Shown piece after piece: positions 4,640 through 22,144 of a stretch of DNA of 34,224 bases. The stretch is from Escherichia coli (GTDB lineage Bacteria > Pseudomonadota > Gammaproteobacteria > Enterobacterales > Enterobacteriaceae): the NCBI GenBank assembly GCA_025544715.1, contig GCA_025544715.1_4109.4. The stretch is one strand, 5' to 3'. A program made the translations under genes and the position numbers. How positions within the stretch are numbered: position 1 is the stretch's first letter; each line of letters begins with the position of its first letter. The notes beneath the pieces are model-generated. The model saw only the letters and a list, made by a program, of their open reading frames with translations, had not been told where the DNA came from and searched no databases.

Positions 4640-4841
4640 AGAAATATATTAGTCCTATTAAACCTGAGTACATAATATTTTTGTTATTACATTCGATTGC
4701 TTCTATAGTACTACGTATACAATTATTAAAGCAATCTCTGGCGTGTGGTGTATCTATACTTAAAGGTGATACACTCCTTAGAAACAATTGTTCTTCGTTG
4801 CTAAGGTATTTGGTGTAGAATTCTTTATGTTCAGTATTCAT
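4632..4841 (-). CDS. small tandem-paralog protein, 69 aa
   Basis: ATG start; N-term MNTEHKEFYTKYL; 8-nt overlap with downstream gene. Confidence 0.6.
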   Translation of the reverse strand: MNTEHKEFYTKYLSNEEQLFLRSVSPLSIDTPHARDCFNNCIRSTIEAIECNNKNIMYSGLIGLIYFYE

Positions 4842-4842
4842 A

Positions 4843-5052
4843 TTAGTACTCGATTAATAGTGTTAAGATGAAATAGTACTGCATAGACTCGTTACCTTCA
4901 AGGAAATTCCTTATGAGGTTATTTCTGACTGAGTTAAGCAGAAGTGCCGAACGTTTTGCATTTGCAAGTATAATTTGTTGATGCTCTATGCTATTCTGTT
5001 CACCTTTTGACAGAGCACATAGGTAGTACTGCATAATTTGTTCTTGGGTCAT
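4843..5052 (-). CDS. small protein, 69 aa, divergent array member
   Basis: ATG start overlapping upstream stop; weaker family resemblance. Confidence 0.5.
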   Translation of the reverse strand: MTQEQIMQYYLCALSKGEQNSIEHQQIILANAKRSALLLNSVRNNLIRNFLEGNESMQYYFILTLLIEY

Positions 5053-17143: not shown

Positions 17144-17490
17144 CATTCCTCCGGTATCTTGTTTCGAAGGTCAATCATAACACAACAAAGTTTAATGATC
17201 AAGTGAAAAAATACACATATCATACCAATTGTTCCATAAACGACTGAAAAAGCAGGTAGTGCTTTTCCGGCTAGAACAGCCACAATACATGCAATCAATG
17301 TTGATGCAAACAACGATTGATTAATGAAAGAATTCATAAAATCTTTACCATTACGCTTATAGAATTGTCGTTTAAAATACCATCCTAGAAACATAACCAC
17401 CCAAAATGTTACATAACCTGTTAGAATAATCCCTGCAAGTGAATGTGCAACTGGACTACTCCTTAAAAACTCAATATAAGCTTCAAACAT
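17143..17490 (-). CDS. paralogous small membrane protein (tandem array), 115 aa
   Basis: ATG; C-term DLRNKIPEE. Confidence 0.65.
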   Translation of the reverse strand: MFEAYIEFLRSSPVAHSLAGIILTGYVTFWVVMFLGWYFKRQFYKRNGKDFMNSFINQSLFASTLIACIVAVLAGKALPAFSVVYGTIGMICVFFHLIIKLCCVMIDLRNKIPEE

Positions 17491-17828
17491 TAGAAGTCTC
17501 CGCGAATTTTATCTCTACCATGAATAATGAGATGGATTAAGTATACACCTAACCAAATGAACAACCCAAAGAATACAATATATTGCGAGATTGAGTTCAA
17601 GTGAGGATTAGCACAATAAATTAAGTGTGCCATAAGACCAACAATTGCAAACAAACCTTGAACAAGTGTGTAAAGAACTAGTGATGAATTCCTCACTGGA
17701 TACAGTTTAAAAACAATTTTCTTTTTAAAATACCACAGTACTACAACCAGTGCATGATAAAAGAAAAAACCAAAAAGATAAATCAAAGTAATACTAAGCA
17801 TTGTATCTGACTTAAAGAATGTTAACAT
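17490..17828 (-). CDS. paralogous small membrane protein (tandem array), 112 aa
   Basis: N-term MLTFFKSDTMLSITLIYLF; near-duplicate of 17828..18169. Confidence 0.7.
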   Translation of the reverse strand: MLTFFKSDTMLSITLIYLFGFFFYHALVVVLWYFKKKIVFKLYPVRNSSLVLYTLVQGLFAIVGLMAHLIYCANPHLNSISQYIVFFGLFIWLGVYLIHLIIHGRDKIRGDF

Positions 17829-18169
17829 TAGAATTCCCCTTTAATTCTATCACGAGCTTTAATAATAAAGTACATGCTACACACCAACAACCACACGATT
17901 AGACCTGAAAAAACAAGATATTGTGTAATGTGTGGTGTATTATCAATTTGTAACATGTAAATCGCATATATCATCACACCAAATAAAATAAACCCACCTT
18001 GGATAATACTATATAAAACTAAGACTACATTATCATACGAATACAATTTAAAAACAATTTTCCTTTTAAAATACCACAGACTAATTACAATTGAATGATA
18101 ACACAAAAATACAAACATGTAAATTAGCGTGATACCAAGCATTGTATCTGAATTAAAAAACTCAAGCAT
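17828..18169 (-). CDS. paralogous small membrane protein (tandem array), 113 aa
   Basis: N-term MLEFFNSDTMLGITLIYMF; C-term KARDRIKGEF; SD GGAGA. Confidence 0.7.
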   Translation of the reverse strand: MLEFFNSDTMLGITLIYMFVFLCYHSIVISLWYFKRKIVFKLYSYDNVVLVLYSIIQGGFILFGVMIYAIYMLQIDNTPHITQYLVFSGLIVWLLVCSMYFIIKARDRIKGEF

Positions 18170-18234: not shown

Positions 18235-19005
18235 TTAAATTTTTTCAAGGAACAAGTTTTCGCACTGTTCTTCCCAATCGTATGGGTTGTTGTTATATAC
18301 TGCCGAAATCAACAGTGGCATACGCAGTGAAGGCGAACGAAGAGAATCTTCGTGCTTCAACATCCAATTCAGAATTGCTTTACTACCATTACGGTTAATA
18401 CCCTTAGATTCTAAAATGTTAGTCTGATTCATCACGTTCTCAATGTGAATCATGATATCGCTTTTGGTCTGAATCTGTAAGTCAACGTATACAGAACGAG
18501 ACATAAGAGCAGCATAGTGAGCAGACATTTTAGTTTTAGCTTTAGAATCTAATGCTAAATCTTTGTTAGTGATGAATACGATACGACCGTTGAAATCAAA
18601 GCTGTTAGGGATACCGTTGGTGCTCAGGTACTTAGAGCTAGTCATATAAGACACGGTACGCTTACCACTATCCAGTACTGCTTTGAGCAGGTTCATACCG
18701 TCTTCAGAATCAAAGATGCTGTCCATATCGTCCAGTACTAACACGTTGGTTCTATGACGATTCTTGTACAGAACTTCGTACAGAGCCAGAGTAGTCATTT
18801 TACCACTGATGGTAGCTACGTTCCATTCTGCTGCGTCATGAGCTTTCTGGAGGCGTTGTGACAGGGTGTAAGTCTTACCAACACCAGGTGCACCGCTGAC
18901 AACCATACTTTTTACAGTACTGCTATCGTCGAGCAAACACTCAAGAGCAACCATCATGGAGTTGAAGTTTTTCTGGATTTGAATGCTACGTGCTTCTCTG
19001 GTCAT
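18235..19005 (-). CDS. P-loop NTPase (Walker A GAPGVGKT, Walker B VLVLDD), 256 aa
   Basis: ATG with SD GAGGAT; Walker motifs read directly; single-gene unit between a cassette and the next promoter. Confidence 0.75.
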   Translation of the reverse strand: MTREARSIQIQKNFNSMMVALECLLDDSSTVKSMVVSGAPGVGKTYTLSQRLQKAHDAAEWNVATISGKMTTLALYEVLYKNRHRTNVLVLDDMDSIFDSEDGMNLLKAVLDSGKRTVSYMTSSKYLSTNGIPNSFDFNGRIVFITNKDLALDSKAKTKMSAHYAALMSRSVYVDLQIQTKSDIMIHIENVMNQTNILESKGINRNGSKAILNWMLKHEDSLRSPSLRMPLLISAVYNNNPYDWEEQCENLFLEKI

Positions 19006-19033
19006 TTCGTTATCCTCATCAGTTGATGAAATA

Positions 19034-19066
19034 ATTATAGCAAAAAGGGCCGACCGAAGTCAACCC
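19034..19066 (-). terminator. bifunctional cassette: UUCG-tetraloop terminator hairpin containing -35 TTGACT, 18-bp spacer, -10 TATAAT
   Basis: Minus RNA GGGUUGAC-UUCG-GUCGGCCC then UUUUU; TTGACT within hairpin, TATAAT 18 nt downstream; folds only in minus sense (G.U pairs). Confidence 0.7.
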
Positions 19067-19081
19067 TTTTTATAAACATAT

Positions 19082-19408
19082 TTAATACACACAATTACCC
19101 ATATCAATATTTTTACCATTATAGGTAATAATATATTTTATCTTATTAGGTTTAATAACAAAAACTTTTAATTTTTGATTCAATTTATCATTTGAAAAAA
19201 TAGTATACGAACCACTTCCATCTTTAAATACTTCTTGACTTTCAAACATAAACTTCTTTCCATCTATTTTTGCTGTTTGTGTTGTTACATCCAAATACAA
19301 ATTGTAGATAGTGTCAGTTTTTGTGGATTTACATGTTGTTGATGCTTCAGTTTTTGCATTCACTGTTGTTGATAAACACATTAACATAACTAACATTAAC
19401 TTTTTCAT
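19082..19408 (-). CDS. small secreted protein (signal peptide), 108 aa
   Basis: ATG with SD GAGG; N-term MKKLMLVMLMCLSTTVNA. Confidence 0.65.
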   Translation of the reverse strand: MKKLMLVMLMCLSTTVNAKTEASTTCKSTKTDTIYNLYLDVTTQTAKIDGKKFMFESQEVFKDGSGSYTIFSNDKLNQKLKVFVIKPNKIKYIITYNGKNIDMGNCVY

Positions 19409-19428
19409 TTTAATTAACCTCTTTTGTT

Positions 19429-20568
19429 TTACAAAATTACTTCACCAAAAATACCATTGATATCACGTTCAATGATGTATTCACCTTCATGTTCAGCTAA
19501 GAACTTTTTAATGGCTTCGTTAACTTTAGGACGATGAATGTTGTTGAATGTTTCAGTGCAACCATCTCCCTTTTCATAATAACCTTTATTATATAGTTTA
19601 CCACATAACGCAATTGTATGTATTATTATTTCCAATTCTCTAGCAAGTTTCCCACCCACATTCTTATGAAATAAAATGGAAATTTCATTACTCCAAAAAT
19701 TATCTACTTTATATATTTTTTTATAAGATAAGTTTTGTGGACTTAATCTTGCTTTAATAGTTTTGTTTGTAATACCAGCTTTATCCGAATTTTTTGCATA
19801 ATCATTGTGAATATAAAATCTTCCAGGCTTGGAAGTTTTAAATCCTGTTACTGCACACGTGGGACAACCAGAACCAGACAGATGTGAATTTGGTGTTTGT
19901 TGAAATTCACCATGTTCTTTGCATATTATAATAGAGGTTACTTGGTTGTTAATGTAGTCATATAAAGAATAATCATACTTATTTCCGTGTATAAGATGTG
20001 ATTTTTTTATAAATTCACCTAAAGTTTGTTTTAAAGTTTGTTTCGTGCATTCTTGACAACCAATTTTACCAGTAGCTAAGTCAGTAATTGTGGGTTTTTT
20101 TATATCACCACAATCATTACATACTACTTCAATTTTAGTTCTACTAGGAAGTGTAGAGTTAAACGAAGTTATTCCACTATAAGTAAATTTATCATAACCA
20201 TATTTTTTGTTGATGACACTAATATGATTAATAGTGTAATATGGAATATTAATAATATTGTAAAAAATCTTACCATTAAATCCCTGCCTAATAAAATTCG
20301 TGCAGGTGGCTCCAATAACTAACATACCATCGTTATTCACTACAAGTTTGGTTTTTGATTTAGATATATAATCTTGTGATCTATTGATATAGAATCCAAG
20401 AACTCTTGGATCATTTATTTCACCCATAATACTAATAGGATCTTGAGCAATGTTGGATTTTTTTACAAAATTTATATCTTCGGCTTTCATCCACTCAAAA
20501 AGCATTCCATGCTCTTCATAAAAATAAACTTTTTCACCATCTTCATTAAAATAGTACTGTTCAAACAT
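19429..20568 (-). CDS. putative nuclease/homing-endonuclease-like protein (zinc-ribbon CxxC pairs plus GIY-YIG-like T5orf172-type segment), 379 aa
   Basis: ATG with SD AAGGAG; CNDCG...CQEC and HGEF...GSGCPTC motifs; FYIHNDYAKNSDKAGITNKTIKARL resembles T5orf172 signature (from memory, not searched). Confidence 0.45.
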   Translation of the reverse strand: MFEQYYFNEDGEKVYFYEEHGMLFEWMKAEDINFVKKSNIAQDPISIMGEINDPRVLGFYINRSQDYISKSKTKLVVNNDGMLVIGATCTNFIRQGFNGKIFYNIINIPYYTINHISVINKKYGYDKFTYSGITSFNSTLPSRTKIEVVCNDCGDIKKPTITDLATGKIGCQECTKQTLKQTLGEFIKKSHLIHGNKYDYSLYDYINNQVTSIIICKEHGEFQQTPNSHLSGSGCPTCAVTGFKTSKPGRFYIHNDYAKNSDKAGITNKTIKARLSPQNLSYKKIYKVDNFWSNEISILFHKNVGGKLARELEIIIHTIALCGKLYNKGYYEKGDGCTETFNNIHRPKVNEAIKKFLAEHEGEYIIERDINGIFGEVIL

Positions 20569-20797
20569 TACTTAAAACTCCTTTCCAGTACTGAACCCGT
20601 CCAGCACCATTAATCTTAGCTTTAATCTTATCTTTTTCGACAAGACCTTCTTTGAAATCGATGGAAGTATTATCGCACTGAATTACATCTAAGTCAAGTA
20701 CTTCTTGTGTACTTAATGAAGTATTATCTGCAATTTGTTGTAAAGTAATTACATCAGTACCGAAGAATTCAGCTAATCGTATAAAAGATAGTTTCAT
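20561..20797 (-). CDS. hypothetical protein, 78 aa
   Basis: ATG with SD AAGGTAA, directly downstream of cassette 20824-20856. Confidence 0.6.
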   Translation of the reverse strand: MKLSFIRLAEFFGTDVITLQQIADNTSLSTQEVLDLDVIQCDNTSIDFKEGLVEKDKIKAKINGAGRVQYWKGVLSNV

Positions 20798-20823
20798 GTA
20801 TTACCTTATATGTTGATGAAATA

Positions 20824-20856
20824 ATTATAGCAAAAAGGGCTGACCGAAGTCAACCC
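20824..20856 (-). terminator. bifunctional terminator/promoter cassette (copy 2)
   Basis: GATGAAATAATTATAGCAAAAAGGGCTGACCGAAGTCAACCCTTT; same architecture as 19034-19066. Confidence 0.7.
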
Positions 20857-20862
20857 TTTATG

Positions 20863-21561: not shown

Positions 21562-22077
21562 TTAATAATTATTCATTTCATCTTTGATTTGTTCTTCAAT
21601 TTCGTCGAACATATCAGTACTAGATTCGTTCTTACTACTTACGTTCTGCATATCTTTAACGTACTGTGGACATTCAACATCAGTAAACTTATACCACTTA
21701 GGCTTCATCTGGAGCTTCTCAATCAAACGATCACGAGACATTTTAATCTCTGACTCCGATGGTACGTAGTCATTACAAAACTCAGCAGGGAATCCGCTAA
21801 TGTCGTTTACTTCAGTGTTTTGAATCTTCATACCACGACGCAAACATTCGTTAACAATATCAATATGACGCTTCTGTAAGTACAATAACTTGTTGTAGAA
21901 GAATGTTACATGACCTGAACCCAACAGGTAAGTACTGTTAATTTTGAAATCACGTACACGCTTACGTGCTTGAACGTGTTTTTGTACAGCACCAAATACA
22001 CGTGGGAGTTCACGATATTCAGCCATCAGATGTTGGTCAGCAAGTTCTTTAACGTGTACTAAGTTAATGCGTGTCAT
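21562..22077 (-). CDS. denV: endonuclease V (pyrimidine-dimer DNA glycosylase/AP lyase) homolog with about 33-aa acidic C-terminal extension
   Basis: N-term [31 protein letters not shown]...KRVRDFKI...[10 protein letters not shown] matches T4 endonuclease V as recalled; ATG with SD GAGGATG; preceded by cassette. Confidence 0.9.
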
Positions 22078-22105
22078 GTATTCATCCTCTCGTTTCGATG
22101 AAATG

Positions 22106-22138
22106 ATTATAGCAAAAAGGGCCGACTGAAGTCAACCC
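22106..22138 (-). terminator. bifunctional terminator/promoter cassette (copy 3, loop variant CUUC/CTGA)
   Basis: GATGAAATGATTATAGCAAAAAGGGCCGACTGAAGTCAACCC; drives denV. Confidence 0.65.
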
Positions 22139-22144
22139 TTTTCT

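What the first reader, a model, noticed from the sequence alone, without database searches (positions are those of the whole stretch)
19429..20568. Zinc-ribbon plus GIY-YIG-like nuclease candidate, possibly a mobile or homing-type gene
The protein has two CxxC-type pairs (CNDCG...CQEC; HGEF...GSGCPTC) and a segment FYIHNDYAKNSDKAGITNKTIKARL that resembles the T5orf172/GIY-YIG-like signature. T4-like hyperplastic regions often hold homing endonucleases. Its start overlaps the upstream gene by 8 nt.
Basis: inference. Interest (0 to 1): 0.45.

Follow-up and report, generated by a model that had tools for sequence, protein, structure and literature searches.

The report
Zinc-finger T5orf172-like homing nuclease gene
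This gene of a jumbo E. coli phage encodes a two-zinc-finger DNA-binding protein fused to a divergent GIY-YIG/T5orf172-type nuclease domain, and it sits at a site where related phages carry other nuclease genes or nothing, so it is most likely an ordinary free-standing homing endonuclease of an already described class.

Summary
The ORF is real: 19429-20568, minus strand, 379 aa, overlapping the upstream 78-aa gene by 8 nt. It has two zinc-ribbon units. One is diverged (C150/C153/C171/C174) and one is a canonical DUF723/DUF4379 unit (C216/H219/C235/C238).

Pfam models do not detect the C-terminal 140 aa. Three results identify it as a divergent T5orf172-like GIY-YIG domain:
- Profile-profile comparison with Pfam-positive T5orf172 domains gives E 4e-6 to 6e-8.
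- Foldseek gives 89 matches (E <= 0.001) to viral proteins; the named ones are mostly CapR- or T5orf172-annotated phage proteins.

The window is an Asteriusvirus-type jumbo phage. Only PBECO4 carries this gene (99.7% identity). At the same site, relatives carry at least six other nuclease-type genes or gene sets, a decayed copy (WPEC5), or nothing (SP27).

The three-gene cassette is flanked by 56-nt direct repeats that combine a promoter and a terminator stem-loop, like T4 PeSL elements.

This is a new member of a known kind (T5orf172 homing endonucleases with zinc-finger DNA-binding modules; Barth et al. 2023). Cleavage and homing were not tested.

The parts
19429..20568 (-). Complete ORF (379 aa plus stop) of the zinc-ribbon / T5orf172-like endonuclease. 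It is 99.7% identical to PBECO4 gp306, which is annotated 'endonuclease'.
20242..20568 (-). N-terminal module (residues 1-109) of unknown fold. The first ~90 aa are shared (42% identity) with the otherwise different DUF559/Vsr-like nuclease gene that occupies the same site in phage G17. The first ~33 codons are ~95% identical to G17 at DNA level.
   Evidence: the AF2 full-length model has low confidence here
20047..20241 (-). Diverged zinc-ribbon unit 1 (residues 110-174), with ligands C150, C153, C171, C174.
   Evidence: hhalign against DUF723 units: Prob 44%, E 2.3e-4; cysteine positions
19855..20043 (-). Canonical DUF723/DUF4379 (CapR-like treble-clef) zinc-ribbon unit 2 (residues 176-238), with ligands C216, H219, C235, C238. 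It is the presumed DNA-binding module.
   Evidence: hhalign Prob 99.8%, E 8.6e-28; weak direct Pfam hits to DUF4379 and DUF723; PF05265 precomputed for the identical protein
19432..19836 (-). C-terminal T5orf172-like GIY-YIG-fold nuclease domain (residues 245-379). Y252, G265, R274, E313, E339 and T340 are invariant in the 9-member family; H317 is conserved in 8 of 9 (Q in one).
20561..20797 (-). Upstream 78-aa gene (phrog_34150, function unknown). It overlaps or abuts the nuclease gene. It is present in 31 phage records and always lies just upstream of whichever nuclease occupies the site. It is absent from the empty-site phage SP27.
19082..19408 (-). Downstream 108-aa gene with a signal-peptide-like N-terminus and no family hit. 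It is part of the same repeat-bounded cassette. It is also present in UB, frameshifted in PBECO4, and absent in G17 and SP27.
20804..20859 (-). Left copy of the 56-nt direct repeat. It combines a stem-loop terminator (-18.3 kcal/mol) with a sigma70-like promoter (TTGACT-18-TATAAT with TG) that would drive the 78-aa gene, the nuclease gene and the 108-aa gene.
19014..19069 (-). Right copy of the 56-nt direct repeat (93% identical). It is the terminator of the cassette and the promoter of the next gene. SP27 has a single copy where the window has copy, 1.7-kb cassette, copy.

Best explanation
The gene encodes a free-standing homing-type endonuclease of the T5orf172 branch of the GIY-YIG superfamily.

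Proposed mechanism, step by step:
- Two zinc-ribbon units of the DUF723/DUF4379/CapR type, perhaps helped by the N-terminal ~100 aa, bind a specific DNA sequence (inferred).
- The C-terminal GIY-YIG-fold domain cuts nearby DNA. The candidate catalytic residues are Y252, R274, E313 and possibly E339 (fold shown; residue roles inferred).
- When the phage co-infects a cell with a relative that lacks the gene, the cut in the relative is repaired from the nuclease-carrying genome. This copies the nuclease gene and its neighbours into the relative (inferred from distribution only).

The gene is transcribed as one unit with the 78-aa and 108-aa genes, from a promoter/terminator stem-loop element that is repeated on both sides of the cassette. 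These repeats give recombination a ready-made homology. That accounts for the whole-cassette gain or loss seen in SP27, and may help explain the replacement of the nuclease by others in related phages.
For: Architecture:
- The canonical DUF723 unit matches at E 8.6e-28 and a second diverged unit at E 2.3e-4.
- phrog_681 'endonuclease' matches at E 1.5e-48 over residues 60-377.
- The homologous phage proteins VSt472 gp56 and Vibrio K459_0040 have the same layout, and their C-termini pass Pfam's T5orf172/MUG113 cut-offs.

C-terminal domain:
- hhalign against Pfam-positive T5orf172 domains gives Prob 94.7%, E 6e-8 with the linker included.
- Without the zinc ribbon and linker, against 27 reference domains, it gives Prob 87.3%, E 3.8e-6.
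- The AF2 model has pLDDT 85.6 and pTM 0.82, with a beta-beta-alpha-beta-alpha topology.
- Foldseek gives 89 BFVD hits at E <= 1e-3; the named ones are mostly CapR- or T5orf172-annotated phage proteins.
- The motif residues are invariant across the 9-member family.
- dN/dS is about 0.15-0.2 in all three parts of the protein.

Mobility:
- Only PBECO4 shares the gene, with 3 differences in 1140 nt against more diverged flanks.
- The same site holds a CapR plus same-C-domain gene (UB, 121Q), a DUF559/Vsr-like nuclease gene (G17, Sharanji, JP4, vB_Ec-M-J, TH47), a 628-aa phrog_681 gene (phAPEC6, slurp01), other occupants (SHEFM2K, Ecwhy_1, Turkey3), a fragmented copy (WPEC5), or nothing (SP27).
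- A 63%-identical homolog lies in an unrelated genomic context.
- Gene GC is 29% against 34% for the window.

Literature:
- T5orf172 homing endonuclease genes carry CapR/DUF723/DUF4379 zinc-finger domains in 87% of cases and shuffle domains (PMC10448857).
- The T5orf172 nuclease Odn cuts DNA in vitro, and the E180A mutation abolishes cutting (PMC8263062).
Against: - No Pfam, NCBIfam or PDB sequence model detects a nuclease domain in this protein or in any of its 8 family relatives, even at E <= 10.
- With only small stand-alone T5orf172 proteins as reference, hhalign is weak (Prob 13%, E 2e-3, N-terminal half only).
- The mapping of catalytic residues rests on alignment and topology, not on a residue-level superposition.
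- No cleavage site is known.
- The only empty-site genome (SP27) also lacks the two neighbouring genes and keeps one copy of the 56-nt repeat. Plain repeat-mediated deletion or insertion therefore explains it without any nuclease.
- The site survey covers about 15 genomes, not all 77 matching records.
Confidence: 0.7

Rival explanations
1. It is a domesticated nuclease or DNA-binding regulator rather than a selfish homing gene. It has the same domains, but the phage uses it for its own benefit. It could be an Odn-like sequence-specific weapon against satellites or competing phages, or a CapR-like repressor.
For: - In ICP1/PLE, T5orf172 and CapR modules have been co-opted in exactly these ways (PMC8263062, PMC8096241, PMC10448857).
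- The protein is under purifying selection in all three parts.
- It sits in an early-type operon with two small genes of unknown function.
Against: - A beneficial function would be expected to be conserved, yet only 1 of about 35 Escherichia phages of this group carries the gene. Other genomes have unrelated nucleases, a decayed copy or nothing at the site.
- There is no significant PADLOC hit.
- No satellite is known for these phages; this was not searched.
Confidence: 0.15
2. It is passive cargo. The cassette moves only by homologous recombination between the repeated promoter/terminator stem-loops, as with T4 PeSL elements. The nuclease plays no part in its own spread; it might, for example, degrade host or foreign DNA non-specifically.
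For: - A 56-nt direct repeat (93% identical) brackets the 1.7-kb cassette, and SP27 has one copy with no cassette.
- G17's cassette is bracketed by the same annotated terminators.
- A third copy of the element coincides with another nuclease-polymorphic site.
- PeSL-mediated shuffling is documented in T4-type phages (PMC2839356, PMC4122927).
Against: - The occupants of this one site are overwhelmingly nuclease genes of at least two unrelated folds. Random cargo shuffling would not be expected to produce this.
- Breakpoints with G17 and UB lie inside the nuclease ORF, not at the repeats.
- The zinc-finger-plus-nuclease architecture is typical of site-specific homing enzymes (PMC10448857).
- The two mechanisms are not mutually exclusive.
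Confidence: 0.1
3. It is not an active nuclease. It is a zinc-ribbon DNA-binding protein whose C-terminal domain keeps a GIY-YIG-like fold but has lost catalysis.
For: - The Pfam T5orf172, MUG113 and GIY-YIG models all fail on this protein.
- The family is small and divergent, with 7 genuine clusters among 1.84 billion representatives.
- The 'YIG' tyrosine is replaced by K/N, as in other T5orf172 domains.
Against: - Tyr, Arg and Glu at the motif positions are invariant in all 9 family members.
- The C-terminal domain's dN/dS is about 0.15-0.19.
- Odn, which also lacks some canonical residues, is active (PMC8263062).
Confidence: 0.05

Closest known systems
T5orf172-family phage homing endonuclease genes with CapR/DUF723/DUF4379 zinc-finger DNA-binding modules (ICP1 gp165 and gp174, VpaJT-like and T5-like phages; Barth, Dunham & Seed 2023, PMC10448857)
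   Same: - N-terminal zinc-finger repeat(s) followed by a C-terminal T5orf172-type domain.
- Free-standing gene with sporadic distribution.
- Domain shuffling between alleles: UB has CapR plus the same C-domain, and other family members have Cys-less repeats plus the same C-domain.
- Same PHROG (phrog_681) as Pfam-positive members.
   Different: - The C-terminal domain is too diverged for the Pfam T5orf172/MUG113 HMMs.
- It carries a longer insert between the E..H helix and the 'TETF' motif, plus a ~40-aa C-terminal extension.
- There is an extra ~100-aa N-terminal module.
- The host lineage (Asteriusvirus jumbo phages) is not covered in that paper.
Odn (ICP1 gp88), the T5orf172 nuclease shown to cleave DNA (PMC8263062)
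   Same: A T5orf172-type catalytic domain fused to a sequence-specific DNA-binding domain. The arginine and glutamate are conserved.
   Different: Odn uses a RepA_N DNA-binding domain and is a domesticated anti-satellite weapon. Here the binding modules are zinc ribbons and no target is known.
Canonical GIY-YIG homing endonucleases of T4 (I-TevI, Seg proteins) and SLX1/UvrC
   Different: - The domain order is reversed: the nuclease is C-terminal here and N-terminal in I-TevI and the Seg proteins.
- The YIG tyrosine is replaced.
- There is no detectable sequence similarity by HMMER.
PeSL promoter-early stem-loop cassettes of T4-type phages (PMC2839356, PMC4122927)
   Same: A composite sigma70-like promoter plus a terminator stem-loop, repeated at the boundaries of indels between close relatives.
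   Different: Here it is found in an Asteriusvirus jumbo phage. Recombination at these repeats is inferred from one empty-site genome only.

Membership tests
GIY-YIG nuclease superfamily | Core beta-beta-alpha-beta-alpha fold | tested here: met
GIY-YIG nuclease superfamily | Conserved Tyr (beta1), Arg (alpha1) and Glu (helix after beta3) at the active site | tested here: inconclusive
   Y252, R274 and E313 are invariant in the 9-member family and lie in the expected secondary-structure elements. No residue-level superposition was available. E339 ('TETF') is an alternative or additional acidic residue.
GIY-YIG nuclease superfamily | Metal-dependent DNA cleavage | not testable with these tools
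   This needs biochemistry.
Pfam T5orf172 (PF10544) / MUG113 (PF13455) | Score above the Pfam gathering threshold | tested here: not met
   There is no hit at E <= 10 for the domain alone, the whole protein, or any of the 9 family members.
Pfam T5orf172 (PF10544) / MUG113 (PF13455) | Profile-level homology to domains that do pass the threshold, covering the motifs Y.Y / K.G.T / R / E..lH / TE(W)F | tested here: met
   hhalign gives Prob 94.7%, E 6e-8. With the linker removed and 27 references it gives Prob 87.3%, E 3.8e-6 over 79 columns. It is weaker with 4 references (Prob 52%, E 1.4e-4) and with stand-alone members only (Prob 13%, E 2e-3).
T5orf172 homing endonuclease class (Barth et al. 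2023) | N-terminal CapR/DUF723/DUF4379 zinc-finger module(s) plus a C-terminal nuclease domain | tested here: met
Homing endonuclease gene (functional class) | Sporadic presence at one locus among close relatives, including an empty site and decayed copies | tested here: met
   Only PBECO4 has the gene. SP27 has an empty site, WPEC5 has a fragmented copy, and at least 6 alternative nuclease occupants or occupant sets were found.
Homing endonuclease gene (functional class) | Cleavage of the nuclease-less allele, and super-Mendelian inheritance with co-conversion of flanking markers | not testable with these tools
   This needs in vitro cleavage assays and phage crosses.
DUF723 (PF05265) / DUF4379 (PF14311) zinc ribbon | Pfam gathering threshold | tested here: not met
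   DUF4379 scores 19.6 bits against a cut-off of 24.5, and DUF723 scores 11.8 against 20.9. However, PF05265 is in the precomputed annotation of the identical protein.
DUF723 (PF05265) / DUF4379 (PF14311) zinc ribbon | Unit of ~59 aa: helix, YDYS, beta-hairpin, with C-x2-H ... C-x2-C ligands | tested here: met
   Residues 176-238 match 20 reference units at Prob 99.8%, E 8.6e-28. The ligands are C216, H219, C235 and C238.
HNH endonuclease | HNH/beta-beta-alpha-metal motif, or a Pfam HNH model hit | tested here: not met
   There is no HNH model hit. The phrog_559 'HNH endonuclease' label covers residues 111-368, but there is no independent sign of an HNH motif; the match probably reflects the shared zinc-ribbon and nuclease modules.
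PeSL-type regulatory cassette | A strong sigma70-like promoter overlapping a terminator stem-loop, repeated at indel boundaries | tested here: met
   TTGACT-18-TATAAT with TG (11/12 match) occurs at three copies. The stem-loops fold at -17 to -19 kcal/mol, z -4.3 to -5.4. The 56-nt repeat brackets the cassette, and SP27 has a single copy. Promoter and terminator activity were not tested.

The most novel reading that the evidence does not exclude
The position just downstream of the 78-aa gene may be a dedicated nuclease 'landing pad' in Asteriusvirus jumbo phages. Nucleases with unrelated catalytic folds (T5orf172-like GIY-YIG here; DUF559/Vsr-like PD-(D/E)XK in G17 and TH47) are swapped onto a shared ~90-aa N-terminal module. 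They are expressed in an operon with the same small protein.

Under this reading, the shared N-terminal module and/or the 78-aa protein would specify the common target or regulate the nuclease, for example as a targeting or immunity partner. The PeSL-like repeats would provide the exchange mechanism. That would make this a two-component, fold-interchangeable homing system rather than a set of independent homing endonuclease genes.
Probability: 0.12. Interest if true: 0.55.

Novelty: new member of a known kind. Interest (0 to 1): 0.25.

Why it matters
The result gives a correct, evidence-based annotation to a gene that databases call 'hypothetical protein' or just 'endonuclease'. It also shows that a small, divergent branch of the T5orf172/GIY-YIG nucleases escapes the current Pfam models.

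The locus is a compact natural example of homing-nuclease turnover in jumbo coliphages: several nuclease types, a decayed copy and an empty site all occur at one position, bracketed by promoter/terminator repeats. This is useful for people comparing or engineering these phages for therapy. It does not change what is known about how such genes work.

Tried and rejected
- Direct Pfam, NCBIfam and PDB sequence searches of the whole protein, the isolated N- and C-terminal parts, and all 9 family members found no nuclease family.
- A word-indexed search with the C-domain alone found one relative.
- An exhaustive HMMER search of 1.84 billion representatives found only 7 genuine clusters plus one TPR false positive.
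- The full-length AF2 model from 4 sequences was too poor to use (pLDDT 53).
- The afdb50 fold library was unavailable.
- An HNH identity, suggested by PHROG and GenBank labels on relatives, was rejected because no HNH model or motif is present.
- A defence-system role found no support in PADLOC.
- The gene is not present in complete E. coli genomes.
- There is no paralog in the window, and no internal repeat significant by BLAST.
- The 260-aa neighbour of homolog P0003 has no match in the phage collection. That context is therefore only known to be different, not identified.
- The N-terminal 109 aa remain unassigned.

Full report
**Observation.** The ORF is exactly as described: 19429..20568 on the minus strand, ATG start, 379 aa. 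The upstream 78-aa ORF ends at 20561, so the two overlap by 8 nt (ATGTTTGA). The two metal-binding pairs are C150-x2-C153 / C171-x2-C174 and C216-x2-H219 / C235-x2-C238. The quoted 'FYIHNDY...KAGIT...ARL' segment is residues 251-275.

**Source of the window.** The window is not T4-like in the strict sense. It is an Asteriusvirus-type jumbo coliphage, about 96-97% identical over 70-80% of its length to UB, SHEFM2K, SP27 and phAPEC6. The identical protein is on record only as an 'Escherichia coli' hypothetical protein on this 34,224-bp contig. It has no match in complete E. coli genomes.

**Direct family searches.**
- Pfam gives only sub-threshold zinc-ribbon hits (DUF4379 E 1e-3; DUF723 E 0.24) and no nuclease model.
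- NCBIfam and PDB sequence searches find nothing.
- The isolated N- and C-terminal parts find nothing at E <= 10.
- PHROGs places residues 60-377 in phrog_681 'endonuclease' at E 1.5e-48.

**Zinc-ribbon region.** I compared the family alignment with an alignment of 20 DUF723/DUF4379 units taken from Pfam-positive proteins. Residues 176-238 are a canonical unit (Prob 99.8%, E 8.6e-28). Residues 110-174 are a diverged unit in which the C-x2-H is replaced by C-x2-C (Prob 44%, E 2.3e-4). Residues 1-109 match nothing recognisable.

**C-terminal domain: sequence evidence.**
- An exhaustive HMMER search of 1.84 billion representative proteins with a 4-sequence profile found only 7 genuine clusters.
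- In those clusters the same ~140-aa domain follows different N-terminal modules: CapR domains, Cys-less DUF723-like repeats, and other repeats. This is the pattern expected of a catalytic module that is shuffled among DNA-binding modules.
- None of the 9 aligned members hits any Pfam nuclease family.
- More distant phage homologs with the same layout do pass Pfam's T5orf172/MUG113 cut-offs: Salmonella VSt472 gp56 and Vibrio K459_0040. Both lie on the opposite strand to the tail genes around them. RaK2 gp440, next to the major head gene, has the same layout but scores below the cut-offs.
- Profile-profile comparison of my family with the T5orf172 domains of Pfam-positive proteins gives the following results:

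| Reference set | Prob | E-value |
|---|---|---|
| 4 domains, linker included | 94.7% | 6e-8 |
| 4 domains, zinc ribbon and linker removed | 52% | 1.4e-4 |
| 27 domains, zinc ribbon and linker removed | 87.3% | 3.8e-6 |
| Small stand-alone T5orf172 proteins only | 13% | 2e-3 |

- The alignment pairs YIH with Y.Y, KAGIT with KIG.T, the invariant Arg with the Arg, LA..LE...H with E..lH, and GDGCTETF with DGCTEWF.

**C-terminal domain: structural evidence.**
- An AlphaFold model built from the 9-sequence alignment is confident (pLDDT 85.6, pTM 0.82) and has a beta-beta-alpha-beta-alpha core.
- Foldseek against predicted viral structures gives 89 hits at E <= 1e-3. The named ones are mostly 'CapR homology domain-containing', 'T5 Orf172' or 'homing endonuclease' phage proteins.
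- I conclude that the domain is a divergent T5orf172-like member of the GIY-YIG superfamily.
- Y252, G265, R274, E313, E339 and T340 are invariant in the family, and H317 is conserved in 8 of 9 members. By position in the secondary structure, Y252, R274 and E313 correspond to the GIY tyrosine, the Arg of helix 1 and the catalytic Glu of the helix after strand 3. This residue mapping is an inference.
- All three parts of the protein evolve under purifying selection: dN/dS is 0.14-0.23 against two metagenomic homologs, with dS near saturation.

**Distribution.** Among 50,697 phage records, only PBECO4 (GenBank and RefSeq copies; gp306 'endonuclease') has the gene, at 99.7% protein identity. There are 3 differences in the 1140-nt gene, against denser differences in the flanks. 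The position between the conserved 256-aa P-loop gene and the 78-aa gene is occupied as follows:

| Phage(s) | Occupant |
|---|---|
| UB, 121Q | 487-aa CapR plus same-C-domain gene |
| G17, Sharanji, JP4, vB_Ec-M-J; TH47 | 371/372-aa gene; 382-aa gene |
| phAPEC6, slurp01 | 628-aa phrog_681 gene |
| SHEFM2K, Ecwhy_1, Turkey3 | Other occupants |
| WPEC5 | Copy fragmented into at least 5 ORFs |
| SP27 | Nothing |

The C-terminus of the G17-type gene matches a DUF559/Vsr-like region (E 2e-7), and the gene falls in phrog_9084 'homing endonuclease'.

Two more observations bear on mobility. A 69%-identical metagenomic homolog again follows denV and a truncated 78-aa homolog. A 63%-identical homolog sits in an unrelated context next to another Cys-less repeat gene. 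The gene's GC content is 29.1% against 34.3% for the window. This is the pattern of gain, replacement, decay and loss expected of free-standing homing endonuclease genes.

**Cassette structure.**
- SP27 lacks the whole of 19070-20811, which holds the 78-aa gene, the nuclease gene and the 108-aa gene.
- In the window this segment is bracketed by a 56-nt direct repeat (19014-19069 and 20804-20859; 93% identical).
- On the coding strand, the repeat is an 11-14-bp stem-loop followed by a run of U (-18 kcal/mol, z -5.4). It overlaps a sigma70-like promoter, TTGACT-18-TATAAT with an extended TG.
- A third copy at 22103-22141 lies where UB, JP4 and vB_Ec-M-J carry an extra HNH endonuclease gene.
- These elements look like the PeSL cassettes that mediate modular shuffling in T4-type phages (PMC2839356). 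Repeat-mediated recombination is therefore a sufficient alternative for the SP27 difference.
- The breakpoints with G17 (inside the first ~33 codons) and with UB (inside the last ~93 codons) lie within the nuclease ORF. The first ~90 aa are shared with G17's otherwise unrelated nuclease (42% identity, E 4e-17). This shows domain-level recombination as well.

**Comparison with what is known.** Barth, Dunham and Seed (PMC10448857) describe exactly this class. T5orf172 homing endonuclease genes carry CapR, DUF723 or DUF4379 zinc-finger DNA-binding modules in 87% of cases, have a repetitive modular architecture, and swap domains. The Asteriusvirus group is not mentioned in that paper. Nuclease activity of a T5orf172 domain, and its dependence on a conserved Glu, was shown for ICP1 Odn (PMC8263062).

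The present gene therefore works like, and by profile and fold belongs with, this class. It fails Pfam's own T5orf172 threshold and represents a small divergent sub-branch.

**Verdict.**
- Novelty: a new member of a known kind.
- What is shown: the domain architecture, the fold, the sporadic distribution and the repeat-bounded cassette.
- What is inferred: DNA cleavage, target specificity and homing.
- Interest is low to moderate (0.25).
- The only unusual aspect is that nucleases of two different folds alternate at one site, behind a shared N-terminal module and the same small upstream gene.

Noticed in passing
window 22103-22141 (and denV at 21562-22077): A third copy of the promoter/terminator stem-loop lies just past the T4 endonuclease V (denV) homolog. 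UB, JP4 and vB_Ec-M-J carry an extra 'HNH endonuclease' gene at exactly this position, and the window does not. This is a second nuclease-polymorphic site.
   Followed up: partly
window 20295-20568 versus L002 (phage G17) 3078-4193: The first ~90 aa of the window nuclease are homologous (42% identity, E 4e-17; ~95% DNA identity over the first 98 nt) to the N-terminus of G17's nuclease. G17's catalytic domain is DUF559/Vsr-like, a different fold. So a shared N-terminal module sits on two unrelated nuclease types at the same site.
   Followed up: partly
window 20561-20797: The 78-aa gene (phrog_34150, unknown function) lies immediately upstream of whichever nuclease occupies the site in every relative examined, and often overlaps it by 4-11 nt. 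Its 3' end varies between genomes (53-88 aa). It is missing only from the empty-site phage SP27. It may hold the target, or it may be a functional partner.
   Followed up: partly
L017 (phage WPEC5) 2013-3512: The occupant gene here has Cys-less DUF723-like repeats plus the same C-terminal domain. It is broken into at least five short ORFs. This is either a decaying homing endonuclease gene or the result of sequencing errors.
   Followed up: partly
window 19082-19408; L001 (PBECO4) 4841-5023: The 108-aa gene has a signal-peptide-like N-terminus and no family hit. It is intact in the window and in UB but frameshifted in PBECO4 (indels at window positions 19177 and 19195).
   Followed up: partly
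window 17490-17828 and 17828-18169: These are tandem paralogous ORFs of 112/113 aa that look membrane-like. They are part of a longer run of similar small genes in related phages (PBECO4 gp299-303). One copy differs in number or identity between relatives.
   Followed up: no
window 18235-19005: This 256-aa P-loop/AAA-like NTPase (phrog_1250; only sub-threshold or borderline Pfam AAA hits) is conserved next to the variable site. Related phage records annotate it inconsistently, as 'clamp loader', 'FleQ' or 'ATP-binding protein'.
   Followed up: no
P0121, P0122 and the window protein, last ~45 residues: The C-terminal ~45 aa (TETFNNIHRPKVNEAIKKFLAEHEGEYIIERDINGIFGEVIL) are identical in proteins whose upstream parts are only 60-70% identical to the window protein. 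This suggests recent recombination within the nuclease domain itself.
   Followed up: no
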